Positions 27,599-51,194 are shown, numbered from the stretch's first letter. The stretch is DNA of 64,000 bases from an uncultured archaeon (GCA_964353775.1 CAYGWB010000005.1:66690-130689); one strand, 5' to 3'. Notes: a model not told the origin generated them from the sequence alone. Numbers and translations are program-made.

Positions 27599-27606
27599 TT
27601 ATCAAA

Positions 27607-28181: not shown

Positions 28182-28203
28182 TACTGCATCCTCTCTGCTT
28201 TCT

Positions 28204-28743: not shown

Positions 28744-28744
28744 A

Positions 28745-31957: not shown

Positions 31958-32030
31958 GCCCTGGTGGCTCAGTCGGTAGAGCGTGTCCTTGGTAAGGACA
32001 AGGTCGCGAGTTCGATTCTCGCCCAGGGCT
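31958..32030 (+). tRNA. tRNA-Thr (anticodon GGU), no intron, CCA not encoded
   Basis: Hand-folded cloverleaf. Acceptor 31958-64/32023-29 (7 bp), D stem GCUC/GAGC, anticodon stem UGUCC/GGACA, loop UUGGUAA, T stem GCGAG/CUCGC with loop UUCGAUU. Confidence 0.9.
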
Positions 32031-32035
32031 CACTT
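32014..32035 (+). repeat. attL-like copy (tRNA-Thr 3' end) of direct repeat
   Basis: GATTCTCGCCCAGGGCTCACTT. The 12-nt exact core CGCCCAGGGCTC (32020-32031) recurs at 34743-34754 with conserved flanks. Confidence 0.55.
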
Positions 32036-33309: not shown

Positions 33310-33374
33310 CCCGCCACCGGTGTCACGGTATATCGAGCGGGGAGATAAAGGGAAGGATATATTAAAAGAAATAA

Positions 33375-33944: not shown

Positions 33945-33957
33945 GCTTTAACCACTA

Positions 33958-36409: not shown

Positions 36410-36439
36410 GAAAGAACTTGTCAGAACGGGCTTAAATTA

Positions 36440-36850
36440 TTACTTGTAGTTCACGACGAAACCCGCGGACGGTTCCTCGGCCTTCGGCGTGTCCACCATA
36501 TCGGTCGGCTCGATAACAGCTTCCCCTGTCGGCATCTCCGCAGGCTCGGCCTCTGGCCGTGCGACAGTAACGGGCTCCTTGCCGAGCGCGCGCAGTATGT
36601 CGTCCCTGCTAGCGGATACCGAACTTGAGATGTTAACGCAAAGTTTGTCGAGCGAATCGAAACGGGCAGCGATCACGTGGGCCAGGTCGTTGTTTATGGA
36701 TTTCATGTCAGCCCTCCTCATGGCTTCTATCGACAGGATGTCGATAAGAATCATAACAATAAGCGCCGGCATCACTGCATAGCCGACAGCGGTCAGCACT
36801 ATTAGTACTGCTGTCAACGACACCAGGGCCCAAAATACCTTGCTGAGCAT
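36440..36850 (-). CDS. small 2-TM membrane protein with acidic C-terminal tail
   Basis: Start set at the internal ATG 36848-36850 (the track ORF would overlap the giant gene). Two hydrophobic helices. Own TATA (GCTTTAAATCC) about 22 nt upstream. Confidence 0.45.
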   Translation of the reverse strand: MLSKVFWALVSLTAVLIVLTAVGYAVMPALIVMILIDILSIEAMRRADMKSINNDLAHVIAARFDSLDKLCVNISSSVSASRDDILRALGKEPVTVARPEAEPAEMPTGEAVIEPTDMVDTPKAEEPSAGFVVNYK

Positions 36851-36882
36851 GTCATATATGGCAAAGAAAAAGGATTTAAAGC

Positions 36883-39800
36883 TTATTGGGAGCGTTTTTC
36901 TCCGCCGTCTGTCGCAGGTTTCTTCTTGAATAACTTCTTGAACAGCTCCGGCTTCTTGTACCAGAGCCATCCGAGTATTGCGATTATCAGCAGTATGATG
37001 GCGACCGCTGTCAGCGGGTTCGATGTCACGCCGAACAATGCACCTGTTAGTCCTGACTGTACGATCGGCGCAGGTGTCGGTTCCGGACCTGGCAAGGTCT
37101 GGTTCGCTATCACCTCTTCCACAGTCTCCGCGGGCTTCTTTATGATAAGTGTCGCCGTGGCGCTGGCGCTCAGTCCTTCAGCAGTTGTGACTGTCACTGT
37201 TATAATATTTACACCGGACTTCGCAGTCTCCGGAACAGCAACGGCTACCAAAAAGGTCTGGCTGCTGCCCGATATCATCGATATCGATGACGGATCGACG
37301 GCGTATGTGTATGGCATGCCGCCGATGCTCAGCTTAACGTTGGTCAGGTCCTTGCCGCCGACGTAGACGTAAACGTTGAATATGCCCGTTGTTCCGGTGT
37401 CCATGATTATCGGGCTCTGCACCGTAACGGTCATCGTAGCATTCTGTGGCGGCGGGTTTGTTCCGAATCCGCCCAGTCCAGAACCTGTATTATTTGTATC
37501 GGTGTTCAGGTTCACTGCAAACTGTACTGTCGGACCGTCTGCCCAATTGTCGGACATGTCCCAGCATCGAGCGTGCAGGTTGTACAATCCGGTCGCATAG
37601 AATGTCCATGTAGCCGTGACTTTGGTGCTGTTCGATGGTAGCATGTCGGTCATGTTTATCACTGATCCGCCGTCTATGTAGAGCACGCACTCCTTGACAG
37701 CCGTGTTGTCAGTAACGTTCGCCGATATATTGACAAGCTGGTTCGTCAGTGCGTAGTTTGGCCATATCGCGCTGACTACCGGCGGGTCTAGATCGATTAT
37801 CACGGTTCCGTTTCTGACCATAAGTGTTATGTTTCTGCTCGCGCTGTTTCCAGACGTGTCCGTAGCGATGACAGACCAGTGGTATGTTCCGTCAGCCGAC
37901 GGTATGTCTATGGTTGTCTCCCAGACGTCCGTGCCTATCGATGTGGCGAGCGTTCCGTTGACGGTCACGTTCGCGACAGCGAAGTTGTCCGTAACGTTGA
38001 TGCTGAAGTTTGCAGGCGAGCCTGCCACTAAATCAGTCGTGTTCCATATCTTGTTTATGGAAGGCGGCATCGTATCAGCCGGAACGATAAATGTAACATT
38101 GGCGCTGCCTTCGAGACCTGCTGTGTCGATGGCGTATACGAACAGCGTGTGCGTTCCGACACCGACGGTCATCGTCATGTTGCCTGTCAGTGTCACGTTC
38201 GCAGCCCCGTCAAGGCTGTAGCCAGCCCAGCTCAGTATCTCGCTGCTTGTCCAGTTCAGGTCTATCGAGTTGGTCATGTATGTCGTGTTCGTCGGTGATA
38301 TTATTGTTACGACCGGAGGCATGGTGTCCTGTACGGTCAGGTTGAGAGCCGTCCATGCGGCAGTATAATTGGTGTTGCCGGCGACCGACGCGTTCACGAT
38401 GTGTACGCCCGTTGCCATTGTGCCTGTCATTATCAGCACTTCGTACGGGCTCGGACTCTCCGATGGCACGCCGTCAATTGTCATTGTTATGTTCTCTGGA
38501 ATAGAGAGCACGGCTGTCGCGTTTACGATCGCGCCGCGCTCAACTGTCTCGTCTGTGCTGTTTCCATCCAGGTAGAGCGCCAGCGTCGGCGTTGCCTGCA
38601 AAACTGTAATGTATCTGTCGACGATACTCGTGGCAGTGAAATTCTCCGTCTCGTCATAAGTGCAGCTGTAGTTGTAAGTTCCAGCACCAAGCGTAACGTT
38701 GTCCGGATTAGTCACGATGCTGCCGTCCCTAAGCAGTGTGATATTCGCTGCCGGGTCGCCTGTGATCATTGCGCAGGTCGCTATTGTTTCGGTTCCGTAT
38801 GTGACCGTGTCGTTCGGTGCGAATGTTATGTCAATGACAGACGTTCCTTTGGCTACTGTAGCTGTATAAGTGACATCTGCTGCGGTGTAGTTGTCTGCAG
38901 TAAAGTTGGCCTTGTAGACGTAGACGTTTGCCGCCGGGTCCCATACTTTGCTGAGGCCGCCGACATCGCTGTCGTTCTCGTAAAGCTTCAGCACGCCCTC
39001 GTCATTCACGGTCGCATCTTTCCATGCCGTTGCGTTGAGCGTCACAGGGTATGTTCCGCTTAAGTCCGACTCTATGCCGTTCAGCTCGAGGCGGATGCTT
39101 ATCGCTTTCTTGTCCACGGTCAGCCAGTACGTCTTGCTCGCAGCAGCATAGTTGCTGCTACCGCTGAACTCGACTGTGTAGTTGTACGTCCCGTAACCGA
39201 GCCTCTGGACGTCATCCAGACTGGTCAACAGTACGCCGTCCTTATAAAAGTTCAATGATCCTTCCGCAATGTCCTTGTATGCGGTCGCGTTGCTGACGTC
39301 CTCATAAGTGTAAGTCCTGTTCGCATCGACCGCGCCATCGAACGCTACGTGGATGTAATCGGTCGTCGAGGTGTTCTGCAAAATAGTTATGCTCGTGCTG
39401 TTCGAAGCAGAGGTGTAGTTGCCCGTCTCTGTGACGTTGCAGACGTAGTCGTACGTGTCGACCGGTAAAACGATGGCGACGCCGTTCTCTGTCGAAGTAA
39501 CGTCCGCACCGTTTCTCCAAAGCACCGCAGGTGCCTCCAAGTTGGTCGAGCTACAGTCAGCTGTAACGGCTGTCGGATAGGTTCCGCCAGCAGGCGTAAC
39601 AGTCAGGCTGGCTGCTGAATCCACCTTTGTAATTTCCAGGTAGTATGTCAGTCCGGTCGTGTTTGCCCAGTAGTTTGTTGCGCCTGTGCTGTTCACGGAA
39701 TATTCATATACTCCGGCCGGAAGCGTATCGATCTCAGGATTCGTCACCTGTGTGCCGTCCCTCCACAGGTCCGCATTTCCGCTCGCGGCAACGCCTGTCG

Positions 39801-42800
39801 CGTTGCTAGGCGTTCCATAGACCATTGTCACGTTCTGATCAAGCATGCCGTTCAGCCACAATTCAACAGGGTTGTCCAGCATTCCGACGTATAGCGTGTC
39901 TGTTACCGAACCGGCTGTCCAGTTCTGACCGCCTGTGCTGTTATAAGTATAGACGTATGGTCCGGCCGACAGTGTGTTGACATCCGATATCGGGTTGCCG
40001 TCGCCCATCGAGGTTGCGTCGCGCCACAGGGTGTAGACAACGTCAGCCGCGCCGACTATAACATTTGACCATCCGGTCGCATTGCTCTCCGTACCGAAGT
40101 CTATGCTCGTTGAAGGCTCTATGAGCAGTTGTATGTAACTGTTCAGGTCTCCTTTCAAAACTGTGTATGTCGTGCTGTTAGTTGCAGAGCTGTAGTTCGT
40201 TTGTGTGACGTTGCAGACGTAGTCGTGCGAACCGGCAGGTAGCAAAGTAGCCACTCCGTTCTCTGCGTCCGCGTCTGAACCGTCGCGATAAAGTTTTGCA
40301 CTCGCTTCTGGGTTCGTACAAGCGCAGGTTGCTGTTACATCTGTCGGGTATGCCGCAGCTGACGGAGTTATGTCAAGCGAACATATCGATGTCGGCTCGA
40401 TGACATCAAGATAAATAGTGTCGTTTGTTGCAGCGGTCCAGTTATCGTTTCCACTTGTGTTGTATATGACTTGGTAAGTTCCAGGACTCTGGAGCGTTGT
40501 TATCGACGCCGGGTTTCCTGTCTGAGTCAGTGATGCGACATATAAGTCGAATGTCGGCGGGGTTATGATAGCTGTTGAATTGCCTATCACTGTTACCGTG
40601 GTCGGATAGACGACGGTTCTATTGGCCGCAATATCATCTATGAATACCTCAACGTAGGGCGTTCCCTTGTCGACAGTTATGCTCGTGCTGTTCGAAGCAG
40701 CAGTATAATTGGTCTCGGTCGCGTTGCACACGTAGTCATGCGTGCCTGCTGGCAGTATGATTGCTACGCCGTTCTCGGCGTCCGCAGGTGCGCCGTCACG
40801 ATACATCGTAGCGGTTGTCTCCGGGTTCGTGCAGCTGCACGTCGCCATAACTGGCGTCGGATATGCAGCAGTCGGAGGCGTTATGTCAAGCGAGCAGGTT
40901 GCTGCCGCACGCTCGACGAACAAGTAGTATGTCAGACCGGTCGAGTTGTCAGGATAGTTCGTATCGCCAGTCGCGTTCACAAAGTATTCGTATCCTTCCG
41001 GCTTTGCCGTAAGCAGAACGTTCACACCGTTCTCGGAATCTGCTGGTGCGCCGTCCCTGAACATGTTGAGGGTTCCACCAAGTGCCGTAGCTGTTGCGTT
41101 GGCAAGCGTTCCGTAAGTTATAGTGTTGTTCTGGTCGAGCAGACCGTTCAACCACAGGTGAACAGGGTTCTCTGTACTGGCTGTGATCGTAAGTGTCTGG
41201 TCCGACTGGACTCCTGTATAATTAGCGGTCGCGCTGCTGTTGCACGAGTATGCGTATGTGTTCGCAGGAAGCGTGACAGTCTCGACCGCAGGTATCTTCT
41301 CGACGCCGTCTCTCCAAAGGTGCGCCGTTACCTCGTCGTTCAGCGACGGTATAGAACAGCTAACTGTGGTCTCTGTCGGGTAGGCCTCTGTCCAAGTGCC
41401 GCTGGGTGCCTGTGTCAAAACGATCGAAGGCGTCCTTTGGATTATGTTCAACGTCCTTGTGACTGAACCTGGCAAATAATTGGCGTTTCCTGTCGTGTTG
41501 TATACATAAGTGTAAACATTTGCGCCGAGCAGCTTCTCATCCTGCAAGGTATACGGCTCGGTTGTGCTGTTGCCTATCTCTTCGCTTGTGCTGGCAGTTT
41601 CCTTGTATAGTTTGAACTCCAGTCCGGTTTCGCCAGTCACATCGGCCCAGGCCGTAACGTTCGTGACGTTCTCATATGTGAACGTCTGATCCGTCTCGCT
41701 GCCGTTTATCGCGACGTGCATCTGGATCGTGGACGGGTCTTTCTTGTTCACTATATAACTTTGAAGAGTTGCTGATGCCGCACTGTAGTTTCCTGTTGCT
41801 GATATGTTGCAGATGTATCTCCAAACACCTGCTGGTAGCGTGACGAACTTGTTGTTCTCAGCAATAGTTACGTCCGTCGGCGTTCCAGATATGTTTCTGT
41901 AAAGTGCGACGCTGGCTTCAGGATTCACAGCAGAGCAGCTCGCGTTCGTCTGCGTGCCATAGGTTATGCCCGATGGCGGGTTGATCACAAATGCCAGGCC
42001 TGGTGATGCCTTGTTTATTATGTATGTCCAGTCCGGGGTTGTGTTCGTGTTGCCGACCGTGTCGTTCGCGAGCCAGCTGTACATGTATCCAGTAATTTTT
42101 GCCGGCAGGTCTGTAAGAGTTATGTAGTATTCGTTGCCAGATTTCAGCACCTCTCCGAGCTTGCTCGAGTAGGTCTTTCCATCAAAAGTGAATTTTACTT
42201 CTGAGACAGCCGTGTCGTCCGTCCATGTTATGTTGAACTGATAGATTGCCCCTTTCGCGTAAGTCGCTGGCGACGCCGGGTTGTTCTTGTTGTTCGACCA
42301 TTGAGGAGTCGACTTGTCAATCGTGAAGTTGGCCGGGCTCGAGAAACCTACGTTGCCCGCGTTGTCCTTCGCGGCCGCGCAGACCCACATGTGCTGTGAG
42401 ACCGTGTACGGCAGTGTCTTTAATGTGTAAGCCGCATAGCTCGTCGGACAAGCTGTAATCGACGTAGCAGATGTGTTCAGTGCATATGTCGAAGCATTGC
42501 AACCGCTCGAACCGTCAGAACAGCTGACACCTGCCGATGCGTCGGTCTTCTGCCACCCGCTCGGCGTTCCAGTAACTGAAACTGTCGGTGCCGTACCGTC
42601 GTATTTGACTATGAAAAGGACTTTTGAACCCCACGTGCCGGCCCCGTTCCTTGCCTTAACTGTGAAGTTTGTGCTGCCTTCCGTGTAGGCGGACGCCTGA
42701 TAGTAGGCGTTCGGAGTGTTAGGGCTAGAAATGATAGGATCGCTGCCGTCCTGCGTATAGTAGAACGTATCGTCCGAAGGCGAGCTCGGATCCGTCCAGT

Positions 42801-43521
42801 TGAAGTATGGGCTGTTGTCCGTCTGCCATATATTGTTGATAATGGCGACGGTCTTGCCCGAATCAGTAAATGCGTTTATTCCCGCGATGTTCGGCGTAGA
42901 GTTGTCCACCCAGATGTTGAAAGTGGCGTCACTGCCCCAGTTTCCTGCGGCATCCTTTGCCTTGACCTTGAAAATATGCTGAACGTTTGTCAATGCATTG
43001 ACCGGGTACTGGACGTTGTTGGACGTTACAGTTGTGTACGGTGCCGAGTCTATAGTATAATTGTAGGCGACCGCAGCATCAGAAGTGGTCCAGTTGAAGT
43101 ATGGGCTGTTGTCCGTCTGCCATATGCTTGCCGATATCGCAACTCCAGTGCTATTGGTGTACGCGTATACGCCGGTCACACTAGGCGCCGATGTGTCACG
43201 CGTCAGCGTCACATTGTATGTCGGATATGGTTTGTTGACGTTAACCGTAGTAACGTTCGGGTAGAACGAACTGTTGTAGACACTTACGTTGTAGTTGCCC
43301 TGCGGAAGCGTCACGAACAGCGTCTGGCTGTTCGTTCTTGTGTAAAGTGTGCTGCCCGTCGAAAGGTCTATGACCTTGATGTACTCGGCGTTCACCGGGT
43401 TCATCGCGTTGTCATATACGTATATGTTCAGCGTCCAGTAGGTCGTCGTCGCGAGCGCGGGCACTACTAGGAGTGCAAATAGCAAAAAGCATGTGAAAGC
43501 CAAAATGTTTTTGTTGTTCAT
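36883..43521 (-). CDS. giant (about 2212 aa) repeat-rich cell-surface glycoprotein/adhesin with C-terminal TM anchor
   Basis: Signal peptide MNNKNILAFTCFLLFALLVVPALA. Very many N-x-S/T sequons and repeated beta-rich domains. C-terminal helix AVAIILLIIAILGWLW plus a Lys-rich tail. ATG at 43521 (GTG at 43530 is possible), 14 nt after the upstream stop with a GGTG SD. Confidence 0.85.
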   Translation of the reverse strand: MNNKNILAFTCFLLFALLVVPALATTTYWTLNIYVYDNAMNPVNAEYIKVIDLSTGSTLYTRTNSQTLFVTLPQGNYNVSVYNSSFYPNVTTVNVNKPYPTYNVTLTRDTSAPSVTGVYAYTNSTGVAISASIWQTDNSPYFNWTTSDAAVAYNYTIDSAPYTTVTSNNVQYPVNALTNVQHIFKVKAKDAAGNWGSDATFNIWVDNSTPNIAGINAFTDSGKTVAIINNIWQTDNSPYFNWTDPSSPSDDTFYYTQDGSDPIISSPNTPNAYYQASAYTEGSTNFTVKARNGAGTWGSKVLFIVKYDGTAPTVSVTGTPSGWQKTDASAGVSCSDGSSGCNASTYALNTSATSITACPTSYAAYTLKTLPYTVSQHMWVCAAAKDNAGNVGFSSPANFTIDKSTPQWSNNKNNPASPATYAKGAIYQFNITWTDDTAVSEVKFTFDGKTYSSKLGEVLKSGNEYYITLTDLPAKITGYMYSWLANDTVGNTNTTPDWTYIINKASPGLAFVINPPSGITYGTQTNASCSAVNPEASVALYRNISGTPTDVTIAENNKFVTLPAGVWRYICNISATGNYSAASATLQSYIVNKKDPSTIQMHVAINGSETDQTFTYENVTNVTAWADVTGETGLEFKLYKETASTSEEIGNSTTEPYTLQDEKLLGANVYTYVYNTTGNANYLPGSVTRTLNIIQRTPSIVLTQAPSGTWTEAYPTETTVSCSIPSLNDEVTAHLWRDGVEKIPAVETVTLPANTYAYSCNSSATANYTGVQSDQTLTITASTENPVHLWLNGLLDQNNTITYGTLANATATALGGTLNMFRDGAPADSENGVNVLLTAKPEGYEYFVNATGDTNYPDNSTGLTYYLFVERAAATCSLDITPPTAAYPTPVMATCSCTNPETTATMYRDGAPADAENGVAIILPAGTHDYVCNATETNYTAASNSTSITVDKGTPYVEVFIDDIAANRTVVYPTTVTVIGNSTAIITPPTFDLYVASLTQTGNPASITTLQSPGTYQVIYNTSGNDNWTAATNDTIYLDVIEPTSICSLDITPSAAAYPTDVTATCACTNPEASAKLYRDGSDADAENGVATLLPAGSHDYVCNVTQTNYSSATNSTTYTVLKGDLNSYIQLLIEPSTSIDFGTESNATGWSNVIVGAADVVYTLWRDATSMGDGNPISDVNTLSAGPYVYTYNSTGGQNWTAGSVTDTLYVGMLDNPVELWLNGMLDQNVTMVYGTPSNATGVAASGNADLWRDGTQVTNPEIDTLPAGVYEYSVNSTGATNYWANTTGLTYYLEITKVDSAASLTVTPAGGTYPTAVTADCSSTNLEAPAVLWRNGADVTSTENGVAIVLPVDTYDYVCNVTETGNYTSASNSTSITILQNTSTTDYIHVAFDGAVDANRTYTYEDVSNATAYKDIAEGSLNFYKDGVLLTSLDDVQRLGYGTYNYTVEFSGSSNYAAASKTYWLTVDKKAISIRLELNGIESDLSGTYPVTLNATAWKDATVNDEGVLKLYENDSDVGGLSKVWDPAANVYVYKANFTADNYTAADVTYTATVAKGTSVIDITFAPNDTVTYGTETIATCAMITGDPAANITLLRDGSIVTNPDNVTLGAGTYNYSCTYDETENFTATSIVDRYITVLQATPTLALYLDGNSTDETVERGAIVNATAVLSIPENITMTIDGVPSESPSPYEVLIMTGTMATGVHIVNASVAGNTNYTAAWTALNLTVQDTMPPVVTIISPTNTTYMTNSIDLNWTSSEILSWAGYSLDGAANVTLTGNMTMTVGVGTHTLFVYAIDTAGLEGSANVTFIVPADTMPPSINKIWNTTDLVAGSPANFSINVTDNFAVANVTVNGTLATSIGTDVWETTIDIPSADGTYHWSVIATDTSGNSASRNITLMVRNGTVIIDLDPPVVSAIWPNYALTNQLVNISANVTDNTAVKECVLYIDGGSVINMTDMLPSNSTKVTATWTFYATGLYNLHARCWDMSDNWADGPTVQFAVNLNTDTNNTGSGLGGFGTNPPPQNATMTVTVQSPIIMDTGTTGIFNVYVYVGGKDLTNVKLSIGGMPYTYAVDPSSISMISGSSQTFLVAVAVPETAKSGVNIITVTVTTAEGLSASATATLIIKKPAETVEEVIANQTLPGPEPTPAPIVQSGLTGALFGVTSNPLTAVAIILLIIAILGWLWYKKPELFKKLFKKKPATDGGEKRSQ
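39375..41175 (-). repeat. intragenic protein-domain repeats in giant surface gene
   Basis: There are three copies of about 80 aa: CSLDITPPTAAYPT...YVCNATETNYTAASNSTSITV, CSLDITPSAAAYPT...YVCNVTQTNYSSATNSTTYTV and ASLTVTPAGGTYPT...YVCNVTETGNYTSASNSTSITI. There are two copies of NPV[HE]LWLNG[LM]LDQN...GLTYYL. Confidence 0.8.
42794..42831. repeat. exact 38-nt direct repeat, copy 2 (within giant gene)
   Basis: GTCCAGTTGAAGTATGGGCTGTTGTCCGTCTGCCATAT is identical to 43088-43125. It encodes IWQTDNSPYFNWT on the minus strand. Confidence 0.9.
43088..43125. repeat. exact 38-nt direct repeat, copy 1 (within giant gene)
   Basis: Identical to 42794-42831. Spacing is 294 nt, an in-frame offset of 98 codons. 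Confidence 0.9.
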
Positions 43522-43534
43522 GGGTGACACCCGC

Positions 43535-45334
43535 CTAACCCACGATTTCCTTTGCCTTCTTTATGTTGTCCTTCGTGAGTGTGTAGGCCTTCATCTCCGT
43601 GCCGTTTTGCACGTAGACTATTCCACCCATGCCGTCCTTGTCCTGTGTGTCCAGGAAGCCGAGCGAATAGTTTCCAGAGTTCCAGTCACCACCGACCTGG
43701 CCGTACAGTCCGTCTATGATGTTTGCCAGCGATGCGAACTTGCTGTTGTTCTTGTCATCGTATTTCAGTTCAACGCCCCAGCAGCCTTCCGTACCCTTCA
43801 GTTTGTCTATCTCGGCCTTTAGTGCAGCACCAGAGAGCTTAGCTAGGTATGCAGGCATCTCTCCAGCTCCGGTGTAATCTATCATGCCTTCCTTGCTGCC
43901 GAGTATCTTCTGTTCAAGTCCGACTGCATAGGCACGGTCCACCGAGCCTATCATATTGCCGGCAGAGGTCGTTATGTTGATCTGTCCCTTCTCGCCCAAT
44001 CCAGGTATCGTTACCTCGATCTTCCTCATCTCAGGCGAGGGGTCTGTTGCATTATCATCGAACAACTTGTCCCAAGCTGCCTTGTCGATGCCAAGCGCTG
44101 TCAGCATCTCGTCGCGTTCCTGCGCTGTCAGCGCGTTATAGAAGGTGCGACCAGCTGTGTGCTTGTCGCCCTCGGTTGTGCGCGTGTAGGTCTTGTTGAA
44201 CTGCTCGAGCGTTGTGTTGAAACCGTTCCACAATCCTTTGAGGTCGGTCGCAAGGTCCGCCGATATATTAAGCTTGCTCCACATGTCAGTATAGTTAGTT
44301 GTCATTCTGCTGAGCTGACCTCTTAGGTCGGCCAGCTTAGCCTCGTAGGATGTGTTAGTAGCATTGTAGTTGTTCTTCATTTCATCCAGCAGATTTCTTG
44401 TTTCGTTGAGGGTCTTCATGGTGTTCAATGCCAGCTGCTTGTATTCTTGTGCAAGAACTGACTGGTGGCTGCCGTAGGCCATCGCGTTGAAATCTTTTAT
44501 GAATTCGTCTGCGCTGCCGTCTATCTTGCCGTTGTCCATCTGATCGAAGAACTCTGCGGCGCCTGTCAGGTTCAGCTTGCCTGTCCTGTTGGCTGTCGCA
44601 TTGTCAGGCTTCTCCAAATACGTCACCTTCGCGACGAGCTTCTCGTCCATCCAATCATCAGGCATGGCTATTTCCGCCCTCTCGTATGTTCCGTTGGTCT
44701 CGTCGATTACGTTCGTGTTGTTGTAGAGCTCCTGGGTCATTATGTTCTTCTTGACCTTGAGCGTGAATTCCTTGTCGTCCAGAAGATTTCTCGGAAGTAT
44801 GCGTACCTCCTTGACGTTCTTTATCTTTGCGAGCTTGCCTTCTCCGCGCAGCTCTTCAAAAGGAATAGGATCGGATTTGTATGATATGTTGCCGACTTTG
44901 CTCTGAGCGGTGATTATCATTGCGTGTGAACCATTGTCTAACTCATAGCTGATGTTCCAGTCGGCGATTGTCTTGCCGTCCGCCGTCAGTTTGTCGGTCA
45001 GTGACGTTCCATTATAAGTTGGTGCCATCTTCGTCATATTGTCATTGTCAAAGACCGGCTCGAAAACGACTGCCTTCTCGGCCGTAGGGCCTGTCTTCTC
45101 TATGTTGTAGAGCTTCTCATGTGTAACAATCTTACCGGATTCGTTAAATTGATTCTCACCAAAGACCATTGTCTCGATTCCGACCGCGCCGGTGTCATCA
45201 GAGGGTGCTGATGCGCCCATGTCTTCTGCTACCTTGTAGGCTAGGGCTACGCCTAGAGCAGTTACGATACCGCCAACTGCGAGTTTTGTCTTAGTATTAC
45301 CTGAACTTGTTCCGCCGCCTATTAGATTCACCAT
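43535..45334 (-). CDS. N-terminally membrane-anchored 599-aa extracellular protein, unknown function
   Basis: Single N-terminal helix KLAVGGIVTALGVALAY, then a hydrophilic body with N-x-S/T sites. A 13-nt spacer with a GAGGGTGA SD follows the upstream gene. Confidence 0.6.
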   Translation of the reverse strand: MVNLIGGGTSSGNTKTKLAVGGIVTALGVALAYKVAEDMGASAPSDDTGAVGIETMVFGENQFNESGKIVTHEKLYNIEKTGPTAEKAVVFEPVFDNDNMTKMAPTYNGTSLTDKLTADGKTIADWNISYELDNGSHAMIITAQSKVGNISYKSDPIPFEELRGEGKLAKIKNVKEVRILPRNLLDDKEFTLKVKKNIMTQELYNNTNVIDETNGTYERAEIAMPDDWMDEKLVAKVTYLEKPDNATANRTGKLNLTGAAEFFDQMDNGKIDGSADEFIKDFNAMAYGSHQSVLAQEYKQLALNTMKTLNETRNLLDEMKNNYNATNTSYEAKLADLRGQLSRMTTNYTDMWSKLNISADLATDLKGLWNGFNTTLEQFNKTYTRTTEGDKHTAGRTFYNALTAQERDEMLTALGIDKAAWDKLFDDNATDPSPEMRKIEVTIPGLGEKGQINITTSAGNMIGSVDRAYAVGLEQKILGSKEGMIDYTGAGEMPAYLAKLSGAALKAEIDKLKGTEGCWGVELKYDDKNNSKFASLANIIDGLYGQVGGDWNSGNYSLGFLDTQDKDGMGGIVYVQNGTEMKAYTLTKDNIKKAKEIVG

Positions 45335-45347
45335 TTCTCATCACCCT

Positions 45348-46538
45348 CTATTCCACGTTTTTTACTTTGTCAAGTCCGAGATCTTTGTATGTCTGTATGA
45401 CATTGACGACGTCTCTGAAATCCGCCAACTCGGCCGGATTGAAATTCACTGGTCTTTGTGTACCGACCAGCTTTATCTCAACATTTGAAACGCCGTACGG
45501 TTTCGTCATGTTACCGACATCAACGATGCCCTCGGCATCGTATTCGATCTGGATCTTGGAATCCTCTGCAAGTCCACCGCTATTGTTTATCTTATCTCGA
45601 ATGTATTCCGCAAATTTTATTTGGCGTTCGCCAAAGTCTTTTTCCGACATCTTTCTGAGACCGTACATGGCCCGTAAGTATTGCTGGTATGCTCTTGTCG
45701 GTACCTTCTCCCAAAGCTTGTCCTCTATCTCTTGTATGTACTCTGTGAGTAAAACTTCTGCTCCCTTTACAGCCGCATCATTAGCTTCCATCTTTTTCGC
45801 TTTGGCTTCAACAATTTTATTTTTGGCTCTCTTCTCAAAGTACCCCTTGTTCAACATCTTTGCTTTGATTTCTGCGACTTCTTCCTTAAGAGATTTCGAC
45901 TCTTCTTTTAGATTCTTGATGTCTTCCGGTAATTCATTAAACAATTTTTTTATGTGCCCATATTTCATGTTTGTATTGAAATCATGCGAAGAGGGCAAAT
46001 TTTTATTTGCGTATTTCATTGCAGCTTTTATAATCTTATCAACATCTTTACCAAGAACAATCTTGCCATCTTTATCCTTTGTGACACATTCCACTGTGAC
46101 GTTGCTTCCATCGTCGACTTTAATTTTTTCCTGAGGCATTTCATTTATGGCGCCGACTATTTTCTTGTCTTCATCTTCGATCAAAGCTTCCATCCTGTGT
46201 TTTTCATTGAAATACACGTACACAATCTCTTGTGCATTGATCTTTCCCTCGAGATAATGCAAATCGTCGAGGCGCTCTCTGTACTGAGTCAAAAGCGTAT
46301 CGGCCTTTTTTCTTTCAGTGTCAAAATTAGCATACATGAAATCGGGTCTAGACACATAAGCAAGAAACTCGTTCGTGGGGAATGACATGACTGACTTGGT
46401 CGTTTTATCGACAGCGGCCGCATTTGCCTTCTGTCCGTTAGATTTAATCTCTAGCTTGGTTGCGTCTGCAGCAAATTCTTTATCCAAATCTCCAAGAACA
46501 TCTAGACCGTCGATCAAATATTTGTTATTGCCACTCAT
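45348..46538 (-). CDS. hypothetical cytoplasmic protein (396 aa, ORFan)
   Basis: Long uninterrupted ORF with no signal peptide or TM. Lys/Glu-rich central coiled-coil segment. About 40% GC. Confidence 0.55.
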   Translation of the reverse strand: MSGNNKYLIDGLDVLGDLDKEFAADATKLEIKSNGQKANAAAVDKTTKSVMSFPTNEFLAYVSRPDFMYANFDTERKKADTLLTQYRERLDDLHYLEGKINAQEIVYVYFNEKHRMEALIEDEDKKIVGAINEMPQEKIKVDDGSNVTVECVTKDKDGKIVLGKDVDKIIKAAMKYANKNLPSSHDFNTNMKYGHIKKLFNELPEDIKNLKEESKSLKEEVAEIKAKMLNKGYFEKRAKNKIVEAKAKKMEANDAAVKGAEVLLTEYIQEIEDKLWEKVPTRAYQQYLRAMYGLRKMSEKDFGERQIKFAEYIRDKINNSGGLAEDSKIQIEYDAEGIVDVGNMTKPYGVSNVEIKLVGTQRPVNFNPAELADFRDVVNVIQTYKDLGLDKVKNVE

Positions 46539-46610
46539 TTTATAGCCCCCTTTGTCACTCCTTAATGGTTATTATTCTGAAATGCTTAATAAAATAATGG
46601 ACAGTAAAGG

Positions 46611-46618
46611 ATTTAAAC
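46611..46618 (-). promoter_or_regulatory. TATA box upstream of 396-aa ORFan operon
   Basis: Minus strand reads GTTTAAAT about 73 nt upstream of ATG 46538, followed by an AAGGAG SD-like element. Confidence 0.4.
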
Positions 46619-46631
46619 ACATTAGTTATGC

Positions 46632-47537
46632 TCATAGTCCCACCTCGTTATAGTAAATCGCCAGCTGATAGACCTGTTCGTCGAATTCGGACGGTATCTG
46701 GCCTATCGATGTGATCAATTTCGGAGATATGAGCACGCCCTTCGTGACCTGCGCATGCACACTGGCGTTCTTGCTGCCGTACGGTATCGCGCCCTCCGCG
46801 CCAACAGGCTCGTAGAGTATCTGCATCTTTCCGCCGTGTTTCGACATTTCGCTTAACTGGCCTCTTATGTGCTCGCCGAGCTTGACGAACTGCTTGTCGT
46901 TTGCGTTGAAAATGAAATATTTGCCGTAAAGATAGTCGAAAATCTCGGCCGGCACCATCGCCTGTTTGATTTTGTCACAGTTGGTGGCCGCCTCTTTCAG
47001 CTCTTTTACTGATTTTATGGTTTCATTGTTGGTGAACACCAAATCAGACGCCTTACCGGCCTTGAAATCTTCCCATTTAGAAAGCTTTTTTTCAGCGTAT
47101 TTTATCACATACTTGAATTTTTCTCTTTCGAAAGCACGCCTTACAAGGTCCTTTTCATCGTATGTCCTACCGCATATTTTTCGCCCATTTTCTTTGTGTT
47201 CATAGAACCGGTCCACATCGTCCTTATTCCCAAGAGAATAGATGTCGTTCAGGGTATATGCCAGTGCACGCGCCTCGTTCTTTATGTCCCTTTCATTATC
47301 ATGATATCTCCTTACAAAATTAGCGGCCAGTTGCGGCCTCTTTTCGGCGTCCGCTTTCCTTGCCAGCATCTCGTAGAACCGGTCAAATCCGCCCCATCTG
47401 CGTATCTGGTCCGAAGCGGCTGCCACATATTCGCCTACGCGCAACCTCATTTTTTCCGGATCCTTCAGATTGTCCAAAATGTCAAATGTGTTGTCCTCGA
47501 TTTTTATCCGGACATCAGTTTTACCTGTATCACCCAT
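46632..47537 (-). CDS. hypothetical cytoplasmic protein (301 aa, ORFan)
   Basis: Uninterrupted ORF with no signal peptide or TM. No family recognised. Confidence 0.55.
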   Translation of the reverse strand: MGDTGKTDVRIKIEDNTFDILDNLKDPEKMRLRVGEYVAAASDQIRRWGGFDRFYEMLARKADAEKRPQLAANFVRRYHDNERDIKNEARALAYTLNDIYSLGNKDDVDRFYEHKENGRKICGRTYDEKDLVRRAFEREKFKYVIKYAEKKLSKWEDFKAGKASDLVFTNNETIKSVKELKEAATNCDKIKQAMVPAEIFDYLYGKYFIFNANDKQFVKLGEHIRGQLSEMSKHGGKMQILYEPVGAEGAIPYGSKNASVHAQVTKGVLISPKLITSIGQIPSEFDEQVYQLAIYYNEVGL

Positions 47538-47583
47538 AACATAACCTACTTTTACTACCTAATAATGATTACATTTTGATGTA

Positions 47584-47590
47584 TTTAAAG
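47584..47590 (-). promoter_or_regulatory. TATA box upstream of 301-aa ORFan
   Basis: Minus strand reads GCTTTAAATAC about 47 nt upstream of ATG 47537. Confidence 0.4.
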
Positions 47591-47629
47591 CTTAGTAAAT
47601 CGAAGAATTCACAGAATTCAAGCTTCTTA

Positions 47630-49063
47630 TTACTTGTCCTGTTCTATTATGACGTTATCCGCGCCGGACTGGGTCTCATCGTGTGAAGGTAGCGCTTTAA
47701 GATAATTCTTACCGGCTTCGCGAAGCACGTGCAATGCCTGGTTCTTCCTCAATACGCTGACCATCTCGTCCCTTCTTTGCTTCAGATCCCCTTCCGCCTT
47801 AATGCTGTTCAGCAGCTTGCTGATTGCATCTTCATGTCTGCCATTTTCTGTCTGTAACATTATATATCTCTGGATGCCCGGAGCTTCGTCGAAAAGCGCC
47901 TGTGAAGCATATTTTGCCAGCATTATCGTAGTGTCCTTCAGTTCATTGTCATATGCTTCTATCACTTTGAGTGCGAGCCTTTCCCTTTCCCGGAATGTAC
48001 TAATATGGGATTCATACTTGTGTAGAACGCCTTCCAATTTACGAAAGGCATAACCTAGTGTGCCTATGTGGACGTGAGGATCCGAGGTTTCCATCCACGG
48101 AAGATCACGGAATATCGTGTTAAGCATTTTCACGTCTTCGGTATATCTGTCGTTTTCTTCCTTGAACAACATTATGTCGATGTCTTTTTGGTCCAGTCGT
48201 AATGCCATCTCCTGTTCTTTCAGCTTGTGTTCGGTCTCTGTGCGAGAAAGTTTTTCTTCCTGCAGCGCCAGCTGCTTCTCCTGATATGTTATCAGCCTTT
48301 CGGTAATTTTTCTCTCATCACCGTGGGCTTCCTGATAAAAACTCTTAATAGAATTGGATACTTTCGGTAACAGCTCCTGAAGATATTTCTCCTTCTCCAC
48401 GAGCTTATCCTTGACCTTGTTGGCAACTTTCCATTCTTCCTGGAGTTTTCCAAAGCCGGCTTCGAGCTGCTTTTTAATTTTCGCGGCCTCTCCGACCTTC
48501 TCATTTAGCTCTTTTTCTTTGAGCTCTGCCTTGGACCTAAGCTCGTTGTATCGCTTTCCGAGCTCTGCCGCGTCCGTCTTATATTTTTTATCCAGTTCAT
48601 CTACCTTGCCCTTGAGCGCATATTCCTTTTCTTTCAGTTCCTTCTCCTTTTTCTTTGCCTTGTCCTGGGCCTCGGCCAGATCCAGCTCTTCATCCAGCTC
48701 CCTGAGTTCCCTCTGTGTATTCCGAACTTCTCCTTCAGCCTTAGCTATCTCACCTTTTTTGTTTCCCAACTCGCCAAGCACGTTTTCTATTTGAGCTGCC
48801 TTTTCGTTGAATTCCTTTCTATGATTGTGCACATCCGCCGTAGCAAAATTAGTATACACATCGTTGATAACAGATATGATATAATCTTTATCAAATCTGC
48901 CTTGATACATTTCAATGCCAGAATGTCTCACGGCGTCTATGGGAATGCCCTTTTCGTAATAACCGCGAGCCCAAGTAATTAATTCCTTCCCGACCTTAGG
49001 ATCCTGTTCCTTCTTTGGTGTGTACGCCTTCTGACCTTCGTCTCTTTTGTCCCCTTCCATCAT
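47630..49063 (-). CDS. long coiled-coil protein (477 aa, ORFan)
   Basis: Roughly 90-aa N-terminal globular region, roughly 200-aa Lys/Glu heptad-rich coiled coil (residues about 95-300), and a C-terminal helical domain. No P-loop. Confidence 0.6.
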   Translation of the reverse strand: MMEGDKRDEGQKAYTPKKEQDPKVGKELITWARGYYEKGIPIDAVRHSGIEMYQGRFDKDYIISVINDVYTNFATADVHNHRKEFNEKAAQIENVLGELGNKKGEIAKAEGEVRNTQRELRELDEELDLAEAQDKAKKKEKELKEKEYALKGKVDELDKKYKTDAAELGKRYNELRSKAELKEKELNEKVGEAAKIKKQLEAGFGKLQEEWKVANKVKDKLVEKEKYLQELLPKVSNSIKSFYQEAHGDERKITERLITYQEKQLALQEEKLSRTETEHKLKEQEMALRLDQKDIDIMLFKEENDRYTEDVKMLNTIFRDLPWMETSDPHVHIGTLGYAFRKLEGVLHKYESHISTFRERERLALKVIEAYDNELKDTTIMLAKYASQALFDEAPGIQRYIMLQTENGRHEDAISKLLNSIKAEGDLKQRRDEMVSVLRKNQALHVLREAGKNYLKALPSHDETQSGADNVIIEQDK

Positions 49064-49138: not shown

Positions 49139-49414
49139 TTATTTCCATAACCCGACCGCTTTTTTTCCGTTCCACAGCTTGCGGCCGTACTTGGCGGGCG
49201 TCGGCAACGCAAGTAAACGGCCCCCGGCGATCGGTATCAGATAGTATTCTTCCTGCTTCTTGCCCTTCAGGACGAGCTTGACCTTGTTCTGGCTGCGCTT
49301 CTTCGTCCCGGGAACGAGATATTCGTACCGTACGAACTTACCGCGGTCGATCAGATTGCGCACTTCCGGGGTTCCCTTCTTGTTCTTGGTCAAAACCTCC
49401 GGTGGGTATCGCAT
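49139..49414 (-). CDS. small basic protein, unknown function
   Basis: 91 aa, Lys/Arg-rich. Divergent from the DUF460 gene. Confidence 0.4.
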   Translation of the reverse strand: MRYPPEVLTKNKKGTPEVRNLIDRGKFVRYEYLVPGTKKRSQNKVKLVLKGKKQEEYYLIPIAGGRLLALPTPAKYGRKLWNGKKAVGLWK

Positions 49415-49446
49415 ATTTATTTTATTGTCGGCTGAGATTTAAGCAT

Positions 49447-51186: not shown

Positions 51187-51194
51187 AAAAACAC

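What the first reader, a model, noticed from the sequence alone, without database searches (positions are those of the whole stretch)
36883..49063. 12-kb co-directional block: three cytoplasmic ORFans plus an N-anchored 599-aa protein translationally coupled to a 2215-aa surface glycoprotein
**Seen in sequence**
- Five consecutive minus-strand genes encode proteins of 477 aa (long coiled coil), 301 aa, 396 aa, 599 aa (single N-terminal TM) and about 2212 aa (signal peptide plus C-terminal anchor).
- The last three are linked by 13-14-nt spacers containing GGTG-type SD (45335-45347 and 43522-43534), so they are probably one transcript starting at the TATA near 46611.
- None of the first four proteins shows any motif I can assign.
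- Composition is mosaic: about 40% GC in the ORFans (24/60 at 45841-45900) versus about 60% in the giant gene (36/60 at 40801-40860).
- Unlike most genes here, the three ORFan promoters sit 47-73 nt upstream of the ATG, with SD sequences.

**Inference:** this is a dedicated assembly, anchoring or secretion-accessory system for a giant adhesin. It could be a cell-cell or host-attachment apparatus, possibly working with the HerA-like ATPase immediately downstream.
Basis: partly seen in the sequence, partly recalled or inferred. Interest (0 to 1): 0.7.

Follow-up and report, generated by a model that had tools for sequence, protein, structure and literature searches.

The report
DPANN adhesin cassette beside conserved ATPase
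A tiny symbiotic (DPANN) archaeon carries a clade-specific set of unknown genes plus a giant sugar-coated surface protein, placed directly upstream of a highly conserved motor ATPase; a short tail motif shared with surface proteins at the same position in related archaea suggests, but does not prove, that the two work together.

Summary
The five minus-strand genes are real and lie at the stated coordinates. The 13-nt SD-bearing spacers are confirmed. The organism is an Aenigmatarchaeote (DPANN).

None of the 477-, 301-, 396- and 599-aa proteins matches any family or fold library. Each family occurs only in a narrow clade, where the gene order is kept. The cytoplasmic three diverge much faster (29-45% identity) than flanking housekeeping genes (61-87%).

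The 599-aa protein and the giant are extracellular glycoproteins, with about 4 sequons per 100 aa. Their translational coupling holds in four lineages.

The unit extends further than the finding says. It also includes a 136-aa hairpin membrane protein and a 417-aa minimal FtsK/HerA-type ATPase. That ATPase is 47-86% identical across the Aenigmatarchaeota and Nanoarchaeota loci examined and sometimes carries an intein.

The new observation is a C-terminal cytoplasmic motif, F-x-[IVL]-x-[YF]. It sits on the hairpin protein here. In eight other loci it sits on the tail of the large surface protein just upstream of the ATPase. It occurs in 11/294 upstream ORFs against 2/1599 elsewhere.

There is no evidence for a virus or mobile element. 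The roles of the 477- and 301-aa proteins remain untested.

The parts
47630..49063 (-). 477-aa cytoplasmic protein, E/K-rich, with probable coiled coil at about residues 85-300. It has its own promoter plus an SD.
   Evidence: ORF. E+K is 26%, there are no sequons, and it has long Pro/Gly-free stretches. Only coiled-coil-type noise hits were found. The single known orthologue, in L083, is 491 aa and 29% identical.
46632..47537 (-). 301-aa cytoplasmic ORFan. A TATA box lies at 47582-47589.
   Evidence: The L083 orthologue is 301 aa and 45% identical. There is a weak profile hint (hhalign E 0.005) of a C-terminal domain shared with the 396-aa protein.
45348..46538 (-). 396-aa cytoplasmic ORFan with central long helices. 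It is the first gene of the 396-599-giant operon. A TATA box lies at 46611-46617.
   Evidence: The orthologues P0124, P0125 and L002 are 30-32% identical. dN/dS is 0.35 between the L083 and L002 copies. AF2 gave pLDDT 53 and Foldseek found no match.
45335..45347 (-). 13-nt spacer AGGGTGATGAGAA with an SD (396 to 599).
   Evidence: The same 13-nt spacing is seen in L083 and L002.
43535..45334 (-). 599-aa type II (N-anchored) extracellular glycoprotein. Its C-terminal half (about 375-599) is highly conserved.
   Evidence: TM at about residue 18. 23 sequons. The family has about five members among 1.84 billion representatives. Alignment. AF2 gave pLDDT 60 and Foldseek against PDB and BFVD found no match.
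43522..43534 (-). 13-nt spacer GCGGGTGTCACCC with an SD (599 to giant).
   Evidence: An 11-nt coupled junction is also present in the distant L087.
36883..43521 (-). 2212-aa surface glycoprotein. It has a signal peptide, about 15 Ig-like repeat modules (residues about 100-300 and 420-1700), Big/DUF4625-like domains, a stalk, a C-terminal TM segment and a short Lys-rich tail.
   Evidence: (DUF4625 28.4 bits against a cutoff of 27; Big_13 and Big_7 sub-threshold). Homologues lie upstream of the ATPase in L002, L003, L007, L009, L031 and L032.
36440..36850 (-). 136-aa hairpin (2-TM) membrane protein with a cytoplasmic C-terminal region ending in ...GFVVNYK. Its own TATA box lies at 36874-36880.
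   Evidence: It is 60% identical in L002, L003 and L088.
36446..36460 (-). Codons of the C-terminal tail motif F-V-V-N-Y (consensus F-[STGAV]-[IVL]-[NDEQ]-[YF]).
   Evidence: It is the only ORF of 68 in the window with the motif.
35156..36409 (-). 417-aa minimal FtsK/HerA-superfamily ATPase (DUF87), highly conserved across the Aenigmatarchaeota and Nanoarchaeota loci examined. A possible own TATA-like box lies at 36431-36438.

Best explanation
**What it is.** The region is a clade-specific cell-surface cassette of an Aenigmatarchaeote, a DPANN archaeon with a small genome that is presumed to live attached to a host.

**What the sequence shows.**
- One operon, 396 to 599 to giant, makes a cytoplasmic protein, an N-anchored extracellular glycoprotein, and a 2212-aa Sec-exported, heavily N-glycosylated, Ig-repeat adhesin held by a C-terminal TM segment.
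- The cassette occupies a variable slot immediately upstream of a highly conserved minimal FtsK/HerA-type ATPase.
- Between the giant and the ATPase lies a 136-aa hairpin membrane protein. Its cytoplasmic C-terminus carries the motif F-x-[IVL]-x-[YF].
- In eight other loci the same motif ends the cytoplasmic tail of the large surface protein itself.

**What is inferred.**
- The motif-bearing tail recruits a cytoplasmic partner to the inner face of the adhesin complex, and that partner is most likely the adjacent hexameric ATPase. Here a separate adaptor protein carries the tail; elsewhere the adhesin carries it.
- This would parallel the way FtsK-like EccC and T4SS coupling ATPases read C-terminal tails (my own knowledge of those families).
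- The ATPase would then do work at the contact site: either remodelling or turnover of the adhesin complex, or polymer (probably nucleic-acid) translocation.
- The 396-aa protein probably belongs to the module because of its conserved translational coupling. The 477- and 301-aa coiled-coil proteins are fast-evolving, separately promoted neighbours whose membership is only suggested.
For: **Organism and ATPase conservation.**: more than 3000 homologues; 47-86% identity across the fetched loci; some copies carry inteins.

**Surface nature of the 599-aa protein and the giant.** TM and signal topology. Sequon density of 3.8-4.1 per 100 aa against 0.8 or fewer. Ig-like and DUF4625 hits and about 15 internal repeats.

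**Coupling.** 13-nt SD spacers, kept in L002, L083 and L087.

**Synteny.** The order 477/301/396/599 is kept in L083, and 396/599/giant/small TM/ATPase in L002 and L088.

**The [giant..ATPase] unit stayed together.**
- It survived an inversion that separated the ATPase from its ancestral downstream neighbours (Hef helicase, ERCC4 nuclease, DUF460). Compare L091 with the window.
- Large C-anchored surface proteins lie on the same strand within 3 kb upstream of the ATPase in 15 of 26 loci where the ATPase is at least 59% identical. Their density is 5 times that elsewhere.

**Tail motif.**
- It occurs in 11/294 ORFs in the upstream zone against 2/1599 elsewhere (odds ratio 31, p = 6e-8).
- Carriers are the window-clade loci L002, L003 and L088 plus eight other loci: L009, L011, L012, L031, L032, L094, L106 and L108.
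- It is the only such ORF among 68 in the window. The other large surface protein in the window (5917-8997) lacks it.
- Among the six of those carriers whose ATPases could be clustered (L031 and L032 were left out because of inteins), the carriers group in adjacent ATPase sub-clades.

**Real genes.** dN/dS is 0.35 for the 396-aa gene and 0.17 for the N-terminal half of the 599-aa gene.
Against: - All evidence is genomic context. There is no expression, interaction or structural evidence for ATPase-tail binding.
- The motif pattern was widened after inspecting the tails, so the p-value is descriptive only.
- Every locus was centred on the ATPase, so a genome-wide census of the motif is missing.
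- The small TM gene and possibly the ATPase have their own TATA boxes, so co-transcription with the giant is not required.
- Some close relatives have giants without the motif (L004/L091, L007). Others have Zn-ribbon tails instead.
- Many loci have no surface gene upstream at all, only an M50-like membrane protein. The slot could therefore simply be an insertion hot spot.
- The ATPase's other conserved neighbours (Hef helicase, ERCC4 nuclease, DUF460) point to DNA repair.
- Synteny of the three ORFans is seen only among close relatives whose housekeeping flanks are collinear too.
- AF2 models were of low confidence, so the structure searches were uninformative.
Confidence: 0.5

Rival explanations
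1. The adjacency is coincidental. The slot between a conserved M50-like membrane-protein gene and the ATPase gene is a permissive hot spot where variable surface-protein cassettes accumulate. The ATPase is a DNA-repair or recombination motor that works with Hef helicase, ERCC4/XPF nuclease and DUF460. The tail motif binds some other cytoplasmic factor.
For: - The order ATPase / Hef helicase / ERCC4 / DUF460 is kept in about 30 Aenigmatarchaeota loci.
- Many loci have the M50-like gene directly upstream and no surface gene.
- The cassettes are non-homologous between lineages.
- The nearest solved relatives are all HerA helicases.
- The ATPase may have its own promoter.
Against: - The tail motif is enriched 31-fold exactly at this position, in several lineages and on non-orthologous proteins.
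- The [giant-TM-ATPase] unit stayed together through an inversion that removed Hef and XPF from the neighbourhood.
- No NurA or Mre11/Rad50 partner lies beside the ATPase. It also lacks a full HAS barrel and scores far below the HerA equivalog cutoffs (32.5 bits against 970).
Confidence: 0.3
2. The three cytoplasmic ORFans (477, 301 and possibly 396 aa) form an independent, fast-evolving system unrelated to the adhesin, such as a conflict/defence module or a cytoskeletal/partition-like set. They are merely co-directional neighbours. This rival overlaps with the others and is not exclusive.
For: - The 477- and 301-aa genes have separate promoters and intergenic gaps of 92-93 nt.
- They diverge extremely fast (29-45% identity against 61-87% for the flanks).
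- GC3 is mildly lower.
- The window contains other defence-type islets.
- Makarova et al. 2014 (PMC4158269) describe dark-matter islands that mix defence, mobilome and secretory genes.
Against: - No PADLOC, Pfam or PHROG hit was found.
- The 396-aa gene is translationally coupled to the 599-aa gene in three lineages.
- All four families have the same narrow distribution and a fixed order.
Confidence: 0.35
3. The block is an integrated virus, plasmid or other mobile element, or a remnant of one. The HerA/FtsK-like ATPase would be its packaging or transfer motor and the giant its spike or adhesin.
For: - The ORFans have lower GC.
- A tRNA-Thr lies nearby at 31958-32031.
- The ATPase has weak PHROG hits to FtsK-type packaging ATPases and Zot.
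- arCOG00280 HerA-like ATPases are common in archaeal proviruses (PMC4158269).
Against: - There is no integrase, capsid or replication gene and no att-like direct repeat.
- No relatives of the 599-, 396-, 301- or 477-aa proteins occur in IMG/VR.
- The ATPase is vertically conserved across the fetched Aenigmatarchaeota and Nanoarchaeota loci within housekeeping contexts.
- The block sits at the same chromosomal position in three lineages.
- The low GC is mainly amino-acid composition, whereas genuine foreign islets in the window have GC3 of 0.21-0.33.
- The insertion next to the tRNA is 32134-34569, not this block.
Confidence: 0.04

Closest known systems
Giant Ig-like/PKD-repeat surface adhesins of DPANN archaea (for example the large surface proteins discussed for Nanoarchaeota and Nanohaloarchaeota; SPEARE proteins known to me from Hamm et al. 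2019)
   Same: Signal peptide; many Ig-like repeats; dense N-glycosylation sequons; C-terminal TM anchor; a small-genome archaeon presumed to be host-attached; rapid divergence (49% identity against 83% for the neighbouring ATPase).
   Different: No protease, nuclease or lectin domains were detected. It is translationally coupled to a private N-anchored partner, and it is positioned next to a conserved ATPase with a tail-motif adaptor.
FtsK/HerA-superfamily ATPases that read C-terminal tails of clients: T7SS EccC/EssC and T4SS coupling proteins (VirD4/TrwB)
   Same: Same P-loop superfamily (DUF87 hit; weak EccCb hit). It is genomically coupled to membrane or exported proteins that share a short C-terminal motif.
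   Different: The ATPase has no TM domain and only one ATPase domain. The clients carry Sec signal peptides and remain membrane-anchored with the motif in the cytoplasm, so a secretion-signal role is unlikely. No other T4SS or T7SS components are present. The resemblance is functional analogy drawn from memory, not tested homology.
HerA helicase (HerA-NurA DNA end resection; defence-associated Sir2-HerA and DUF4297-HerA)
   Same: These are the best sequence matches in the PDB and in NCBIfam/PADLOC. Walker A, Walker B and the C-terminal ATPase core are conserved.
   Different: It is about 100-150 aa shorter with only a stub of the HAS barrel. Scores are far below the equivalog cutoffs. No NurA, Sir2 or DUF4297 partner is present. 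It is a conserved single gene, not a patchy defence island.
Ced/Ted archaeal DNA-import systems (HerA/VirB4-like ATPase plus small membrane proteins)
   Same: An FtsK/HerA-type ATPase lies next to a small 2-TM membrane protein. A link to cell-cell contact is conceivable. DNA-processing genes lie downstream in the ancestral arrangement.
   Different: The CedD model scores 23 bits against a cutoff of 600. No polytopic CedA-like channel protein is present in the locus.
Archaeal 'dark-matter islands' encoding secretory or membrane systems (Makarova et al. 2014, PMC4158269)
   Same: A cluster of narrowly distributed, fast-evolving ORFans that is rich in secreted and membrane proteins.
   Different: Here the island is anchored to a specific, highly conserved ATPase and carries a recurrent cytoplasmic tail motif. 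I did not find this described in the papers searched.

Membership tests
FtsK/HerA superfamily (Pfam DUF87, PF01935) | P-loop ATPase core with Walker A (GxxGxGKS/T) and Walker B (hhhhDE), scoring above the Pfam gathering threshold. | tested here: met
   DUF87 scores 29.6 bits against a cutoff of 23.2. GKRGSGKS at residues 57-64 and D293-E294 are invariant across 17 homologues.
HerA helicase sensu stricto (NF040819 / NF040937) | Full-length match above the equivalog cutoff, an N-terminal HAS barrel, and an adjacent NurA (with or without Mre11/Rad50). | tested here: not met
   It scores 32.5 bits against a cutoff of 970, and 28.6 against 800, with only the C-terminal core aligned. It is 417 aa against about 500-560. 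No NurA, Mre11 or Rad50 is present in the window locus or in 160 related loci.
HerA-based or MADS anti-phage systems (PADLOC) | ATPase together with its effector partners (Sir2, DUF4297, or Mad1-7), with a patchy island-like distribution. | tested here: not met
   mad8 hits at E = 1.8e-24, but no partner genes hit. The ATPase is conserved throughout Aenigmatarchaeota and Nanoarchaeota MAGs in housekeeping contexts.
Ced DNA-import system | CedB/CedD-type ATPase above cutoff plus a polytopic CedA and small CedA1/A2 proteins. | tested here: not met
   CedD scores 23.2 bits against a cutoff of 600. No polytopic membrane protein is in the block.
Archaeal type IV filament (pilus/archaellum) assembly systems | PilB/FlaI-type ATPase, PilC/FlaJ platform, class III signal-peptide pilins, and a prepilin peptidase. 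| tested here: not met
   None was detected in 35156-49063. Pilin-like genes occur upstream of the ATPase only in a distant clade.
Integrated virus / mobile element | Integrase or transposase, att direct repeats, capsid/replication hallmark genes, and relatives in viral collections. | tested here: not met
   No such hits. No flanking direct repeat. No relatives in IMG/VR for any of the four unknowns. Same chromosomal site in three lineages.
Archaeal surface adhesin / S-layer-type glycoprotein (the giant) | Sec signal peptide, repeated Ig-like/β-sandwich domains, N-glycosylation sequons, and a C-terminal TM or sorting anchor. | tested here: met
   Signal peptide and C-terminal TM. DUF4625 above cutoff, with Big_13, Big_7 and Ig_J sub-threshold. 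About 15 internal repeats. 90 sequons. Whether it forms the S-layer lattice cannot be tested here.
T7SS EccC / T4SS coupling-protein type substrate recognition | The ATPase binds a C-terminal signal of its client, and accessory membrane channel components are present. | not testable with these tools
   Only genomic association of a C-terminal motif with the ATPase is shown. No channel components were found, and multimer modelling was not available.

The most novel reading that the evidence does not exclude
One branch of DPANN archaea (Aenigmatarchaeota and some Nanoarchaeota-labelled lineages) has a previously undescribed contact-site machine. Interchangeable giant adhesins are wired to a conserved minimal FtsK/HerA pump, either through their own cytoplasmic tail (F-x-[IVL]-x-Y, or alternatively a Zn-ribbon) or through a small adaptor membrane protein. 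The pump moves nucleic acid or another polymer across the symbiont membrane at the host interface. In the ancestral gene order, the Hef helicase, ERCC4 nuclease and DUF460 encoded just downstream would process that cargo. The clade-specific coiled-coil proteins (477, 301 and 396 aa) would form the cytoplasmic scaffold of the attachment structure.
Probability: 0.15. Interest if true: 0.9.

Novelty: new variant of a known kind. Interest (0 to 1): 0.6.

Why it matters
DPANN archaea have very small genomes; the closest named relative is 0.52 Mb (PMC8407114). They are thought to live attached to hosts. Cryo-ET has shown elaborate attachment organelles, but the paper examined here names no protein components (PMC11420986).

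This block would take up about 2% of a genome of that size. It joins a rapidly diversifying giant adhesin to one of the most conserved proteins seen in these loci. A shared cytoplasmic tail motif gives a concrete, testable handle for how outside adhesion could be coupled to an inside motor: peptide-ATPase binding and localisation.

If the coupling is real, it identifies candidate parts of the DPANN-host interface. It also assigns a role to a conserved ATPase found throughout the Aenigmatarchaeota and Nanoarchaeota loci examined, which is currently annotated only as an 'ATP-binding protein'.

If the coupling is not real, the finding reduces to an ordinary lineage-specific adhesin operon with neighbouring ORFans.

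Tried and rejected
- **Family searches on the four unknowns.** Pfam (also at E up to 1), NCBIfam, PHROGs and PADLOC gave only coiled-coil noise: SMC, tape-measure, DivIVA and JetC.
- **Sequence searches.** The k-mer/HMMER search of 5.8 billion proteins and the full HMMER profile search of 1.84 billion representatives found only a handful of clade-restricted homologues.
- **Structure of the 599-aa protein.** AF2 on a 5-sequence MSA gave pLDDT 60. Foldseek against PDB and BFVD found nothing with E below 0.001 or a meaningful TM-score.
- **Structure of the 396-aa protein.** AF2 on a 3-sequence MSA gave pLDDT 53, and Foldseek against PDB found nothing. These models are too poor to conclude that the folds are new.
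- **Paralogy among the ORFans.** Only a weak 301/396 C-terminal hit was found (hhalign E 0.005, probability 7%). I do not count it as established.
- **ORFan HMMs against all ORFs of about 170 ATPase loci.** No distant homologues were found. A BLASTP hint between L032_449 and the 396-aa protein (E 0.008) was not confirmed.
- **Mobile-element or provirus reading.** Rejected. There are no att repeats, no hallmark genes and no IMG/VR relatives.
- **The 'mosaic GC means horizontal transfer' reading.** Largely rejected by codon-position analysis.
- **The MoxR-linked archaeal secretion system of Makarova 2015 (PMC5898192).** Its components differ, so it is not this system.
- **Literature searches.** No paper was found describing this ATPase, its tail motif, or these four ORFan families.

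Full report
**1. The observation**

The window averages 51% GC.
- The two 13-nt spacers (45335-45347 AGGGTGATGAGAA; 43522-43534 GCGGGTGTCACCC) each contain a GGTG-type SD directly before the ATG.
- The giant most likely starts at the ATG at 43521 (2212 aa). The gene call in a relative uses the same start.
- TATA-like boxes sit 52-79 nt upstream of the three ORFan ATGs, together with SD-like sequences. Most genes in the window have a box 28-31 nt upstream, which fits leaderless mRNAs. The 477-aa gene also has a second TATA-like box at 28 nt, so its promoter is ambiguous.
- The 599-aa protein has one N-terminal TM segment. The giant has a signal peptide, a C-terminal TM segment and a Lys-rich tail.
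- The 599-aa protein carries 23 N-x-S/T sequons and the giant carries 90 (3.8 and 4.1 per 100 aa). The cytoplasmic proteins have 0.8 or fewer.
- The giant contains about 15 diverged repeat modules of roughly 90 aa and weak Ig-like/DUF4625 hits.

Gene-level GC is 52.7% for the giant, 50.4% for the 599-aa gene and 40.7-47.2% for the ORFans.
- Codon-position analysis shows the dip is mostly amino-acid composition: GC2 is 0.27-0.32 against about 0.40. GC3 is only mildly reduced (0.46, 0.58 and 0.52 against 0.64 +/- 0.06). The truly foreign islets in the window have GC3 of 0.21-0.33.

**2. The organism and the true extent of the unit**

The downstream 417-aa ATPase (35156-36409) has more than 3000 homologues. 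The named ones come from Aenigmatarchaeota and Nanoarchaeota MAGs. The listed protein hits are 65-86% identical over the full length, and identities in the fetched loci range from 47% to 86%. Several copies carry inteins. The closest named relative is a hot-spring Aenigmatarchaeote MAG, JZ-2_2 bin 245 (0.52 Mb; PMC8407114).

The ORF finder reports a 176-aa ORF between the giant and the ATPase that overlaps the giant. By homology with L002 and L003 and by promoter position, it is really a 136-aa protein starting at the ATG at 36850. A TTTAAAT box lies 30 nt upstream, immediately after the giant's stop codon. This protein has a 2-TM hairpin and a cytoplasmic C-terminal region of about 90 aa. The ATPase starts 30 nt further on and may have its own TATA-like box.

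**3. The four unknowns**

- *Family libraries.* None of Pfam, NCBIfam, PHROGs or PADLOC gives anything beyond coiled-coil noise.
- *The 599-aa protein.* It has one homologue in the 5.8-billion-protein search. The exhaustive profile search of 1.84 billion representatives adds only a fragment (P0126), one distant full-length member (P0127) and a protein carrying only the C-terminal domain (P0128). Its C-terminal half is about 90% identical between lineages, and the N-terminal half is much less conserved.
- *The 396-aa protein.* It has three homologues at 30-32% identity.
- *The 477- and 301-aa proteins.* One orthologue of each was found, both on contig L083.
- *Structure prediction.* AF2 models of the 599- and 396-aa proteins were of low confidence (pLDDT 60 and 53), and Foldseek found nothing meaningful. 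The folds remain unknown rather than demonstrably new.
- *Selection.* dN/dS between two close lineages is 0.35 for the 396-aa gene and 0.17 for the N-terminal half of the 599-aa gene. These are real genes under somewhat relaxed purifying selection.

**4. Conservation of the arrangement**

- Contig L083 has PcrB / Fe-ADH / signal peptidase / DUF460 / 91 aa / 491 / 301 / 369 / partial 599 homologue, which matches the window exactly.
- L002, L086 and L088 have 366 / 628 / 1685-aa giant / 139 / ATPase.
- Identities to the window are: 477-aa 29%, 301-aa 45%, 396-aa 32%, 599-aa about 60%, giant 49%, hairpin protein 60%, ATPase 83-86%. Flanking housekeeping proteins are 61-87% identical. The three cytoplasmic ORFans therefore diverge unusually fast.
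- In the distant lineage L087, a homologue only 32% identical to the 599-aa protein is followed, after an 11-nt SD spacer, by a gene that opens with the same signal peptide and 'YWxLN' start as the giant. The 599-giant pair is thus the conserved core of the block.
- This synteny comes from close relatives whose housekeeping flanks are collinear too. It does not by itself prove that the 477- and 301-aa genes are functionally linked to the rest.
- HMMs of all four families find nothing in about 170 other ATPase-centred loci.

**5. The ATPase neighbourhood across DPANN**

I fetched 80 GTDB loci and 80 metagenome loci centred on the ATPase.

*Downstream.* About 30 loci keep the order ATPase / Hef-type helicase / ERCC4 nuclease / DUF460. 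A 740-kb contig (L091) shows what appears to be the ancestral order: M50-like / 383-aa TM protein / 2024-aa PKD giant / 80 aa / ATPase / Hef / ERCC4 / DUF460 / Fe-ADH / PcrB / ... / PPDK / rhomboid. In the window lineage the [cassette-ATPase] segment is inverted relative to DUF460. Hef and ERCC4 are no longer nearby, yet the giant, the hairpin protein and the ATPase stayed together.

*Upstream.* What lies upstream depends on the ATPase clade.
- Where the ATPase is at least 59% identical, 15 of 26 loci have large signal-plus-C-terminal-TM proteins on the same strand within 3 kb. This is 5 times the density found elsewhere.
- The remaining loci of that clade have an M50-like multi-TM gene directly upstream.
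- The clade at 47-54% identity has two or three pilin-like small genes instead.

**6. The tail motif**

The hairpin protein ends in GFVVNYK. Its orthologues end in AFALNFKQD and SFTVNYG.

The same short motif terminates the cytoplasmic tails of the large surface proteins upstream of the ATPase in L009 (DFSIDYTK), L012 (DFSINYGDK), L011, L106 and L108 (DFSIEY...), L094 (NFTIEYQ), L032 (SFTVQYE) and L031 (SFGIQYK). In each case it follows a long charged linker.

- With the pattern F-[STGAV]-[IVL]-[NDEQ]-[YF] in the last 28 residues, 11 of 294 non-redundant ORFs in the upstream zone match, against 2 of 1599 elsewhere (Fisher p = 6e-8).
- I widened the pattern after seeing the tails, so the statistic is descriptive only.
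- In the window, only the hairpin protein among 68 ORFs has the motif. The other large surface protein (5917-8997) lacks it.
- Among the carriers whose ATPases could be clustered (intein-bearing copies were left out), the carriers group in adjacent ATPase sub-clades.
- A second recurrent tail type at the same position is a Zn-ribbon.

This is the strongest evidence that the surface proteins encoded here engage a cytoplasmic partner. The adjacent ATPase is the obvious candidate.

**7. Interpretation**

*Shown by the sequence:*
- a coupled surface glycoprotein pair;
- a clade-restricted, fast-evolving ORFan set kept in a fixed order;
- a recurrent association between C-anchored surface proteins that carry a conserved cytoplasmic tail motif and a highly conserved minimal FtsK/HerA ATPase.

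*Inferred:* the tail tethers the ATPase under the adhesin complex. In the window it sits on a separate adaptor protein; elsewhere it sits on the adhesin itself. I recall that the FtsK-like EccC of type VII secretion and the type IV coupling proteins read C-terminal tails of their clients. That is an analogy, not tested homology. Here the clients have Sec signal peptides and keep the motif in the cytoplasm, so docking is more plausible than a secretion signal.

What the ATPase then does is open. It could remodel the adhesin complex, or it could translocate a polymer. The family's known dsDNA-pumping activity and the ancestral Hef/ERCC4/DUF460 neighbours favour nucleic acid, but they are equally compatible with a plain DNA-repair role unconnected to the surface genes. 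That is the main rival.

**8. Rivals rejected or retained**

- *Provirus or mobile element: rejected.* There is no integrase, capsid gene or att repeat. There are no IMG/VR relatives. The chromosomal position is the same in three lineages. The composition is native-like. The real insertion next to tRNA-Thr is 32134-34569, which is absent from L003.
- *Defence system: not supported.* The ATPase hits PADLOC mad8 and HerA models, but no partner genes are present and the gene is conserved throughout the fetched loci.
- *Hot-spot coincidence: retained at about 0.3.*
- *The 477- and 301-aa genes as an independent system: retained at about 0.35.* This rival is not exclusive of the others.

**9. Novelty**

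Giant DPANN adhesins are a known kind. Three things were not found described in the literature I could search:
- the four private protein families;
- the adaptor hairpin protein;
- the tail-motif link to this conserved ATPase.

I rate this a new variant of a known kind (an adhesin locus plus an FtsK/HerA ATPase). There is a minority chance that it marks a truly new contact-site machine.

Noticed in passing
window 32134-34569 (next to tRNA-Thr at 31958-32031): A low-GC insertion (GC3 0.21-0.33) that is absent from the closest relative, L003. It encodes a Cys-rich secreted transglutaminase-like protein (391 aa) and a DUF5343 + HEPN_Swt1 pair that matches the candidate defence system PDC-M34 A/B (E = 4e-56 and 5e-47).
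   Followed up: partly
window 26045-28920: A second low-GC island (GC 31-44%, GC3 0.28-0.48) beside the RFC subunit genes. It encodes a 3-TM 180-aa protein, a 313-aa protein with a C-terminal winged-helix (Penicillinase_R-like) domain, and 107- and 238-aa ORFans. It may be a mobile or defence islet.
   Followed up: partly
L005, L008, L013, L097, L130, L131, L134 (genes just upstream of the ATPase): C-anchored surface proteins at the same position carry a different conserved cytoplasmic tail: a Zn-ribbon (CxxC...CxxC...C..C, ending K(K/R)GL[IL]). This is a second kind of inside-facing module on surface proteins at this locus.
   Followed up: partly
L031, L032, L033, L043 (860-aa ATPase); P0090, P0099: Several orthologues of the ATPase contain inteins (Hint / Intein_splicing domains). 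This is typical of highly conserved, important ATPases.
   Followed up: no
About 30 loci, e.g. L006 10001-14802 and L091 10001-15114: A conserved gene order across Aenigmatarchaeota: ATPase / Hef-type helicase (split from its nuclease) / ERCC4-HhH nuclease / DUF460. In the window lineage only DUF460 (49402-50613) remains nearby, and it is in inverted orientation.
   Followed up: partly
L044, L047, L050, L052-L056, L058, L059, L062-L064 and others (upstream of the ATPase): In the clade whose ATPase is 47-54% identical, two or three small proteins with class-III-signal-like N-termini (pilin-like, 127-165 aa) sit directly upstream of the ATPase instead of a giant surface protein.
   Followed up: no
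window 5917-8997: A second large surface protein (1026 aa) with a signal peptide, an MG2 (alpha-2-macroglobulin-like) domain and a C-terminal TM segment. Its tail lacks the F-x-[IVL]-x-Y motif.
   Followed up: partly
window 49139-49414: A 91-aa basic protein with no Pfam match, 87% identical in L083, transcribed divergently from DUF460 and directly upstream of the 477-aa gene. It is far more conserved than the ORFans that follow it.
   Followed up: no
window 50614-51237: A 207-aa ORFan (GC3 0.49) that is absent from the otherwise collinear relative L083, so probably a recent gain.
   Followed up: no
window-wide, e.g. 36874-36880, 47582-47589, 26610-26628: A recurring promoter-like element, (A)AGCTTTAAAT(A/C), lies 28-31 nt before most start codons. 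This implies mostly leaderless transcripts. Internal operon genes and the three ORFans use SD-like GGTG/AGGT sequences instead.
   Followed up: partly
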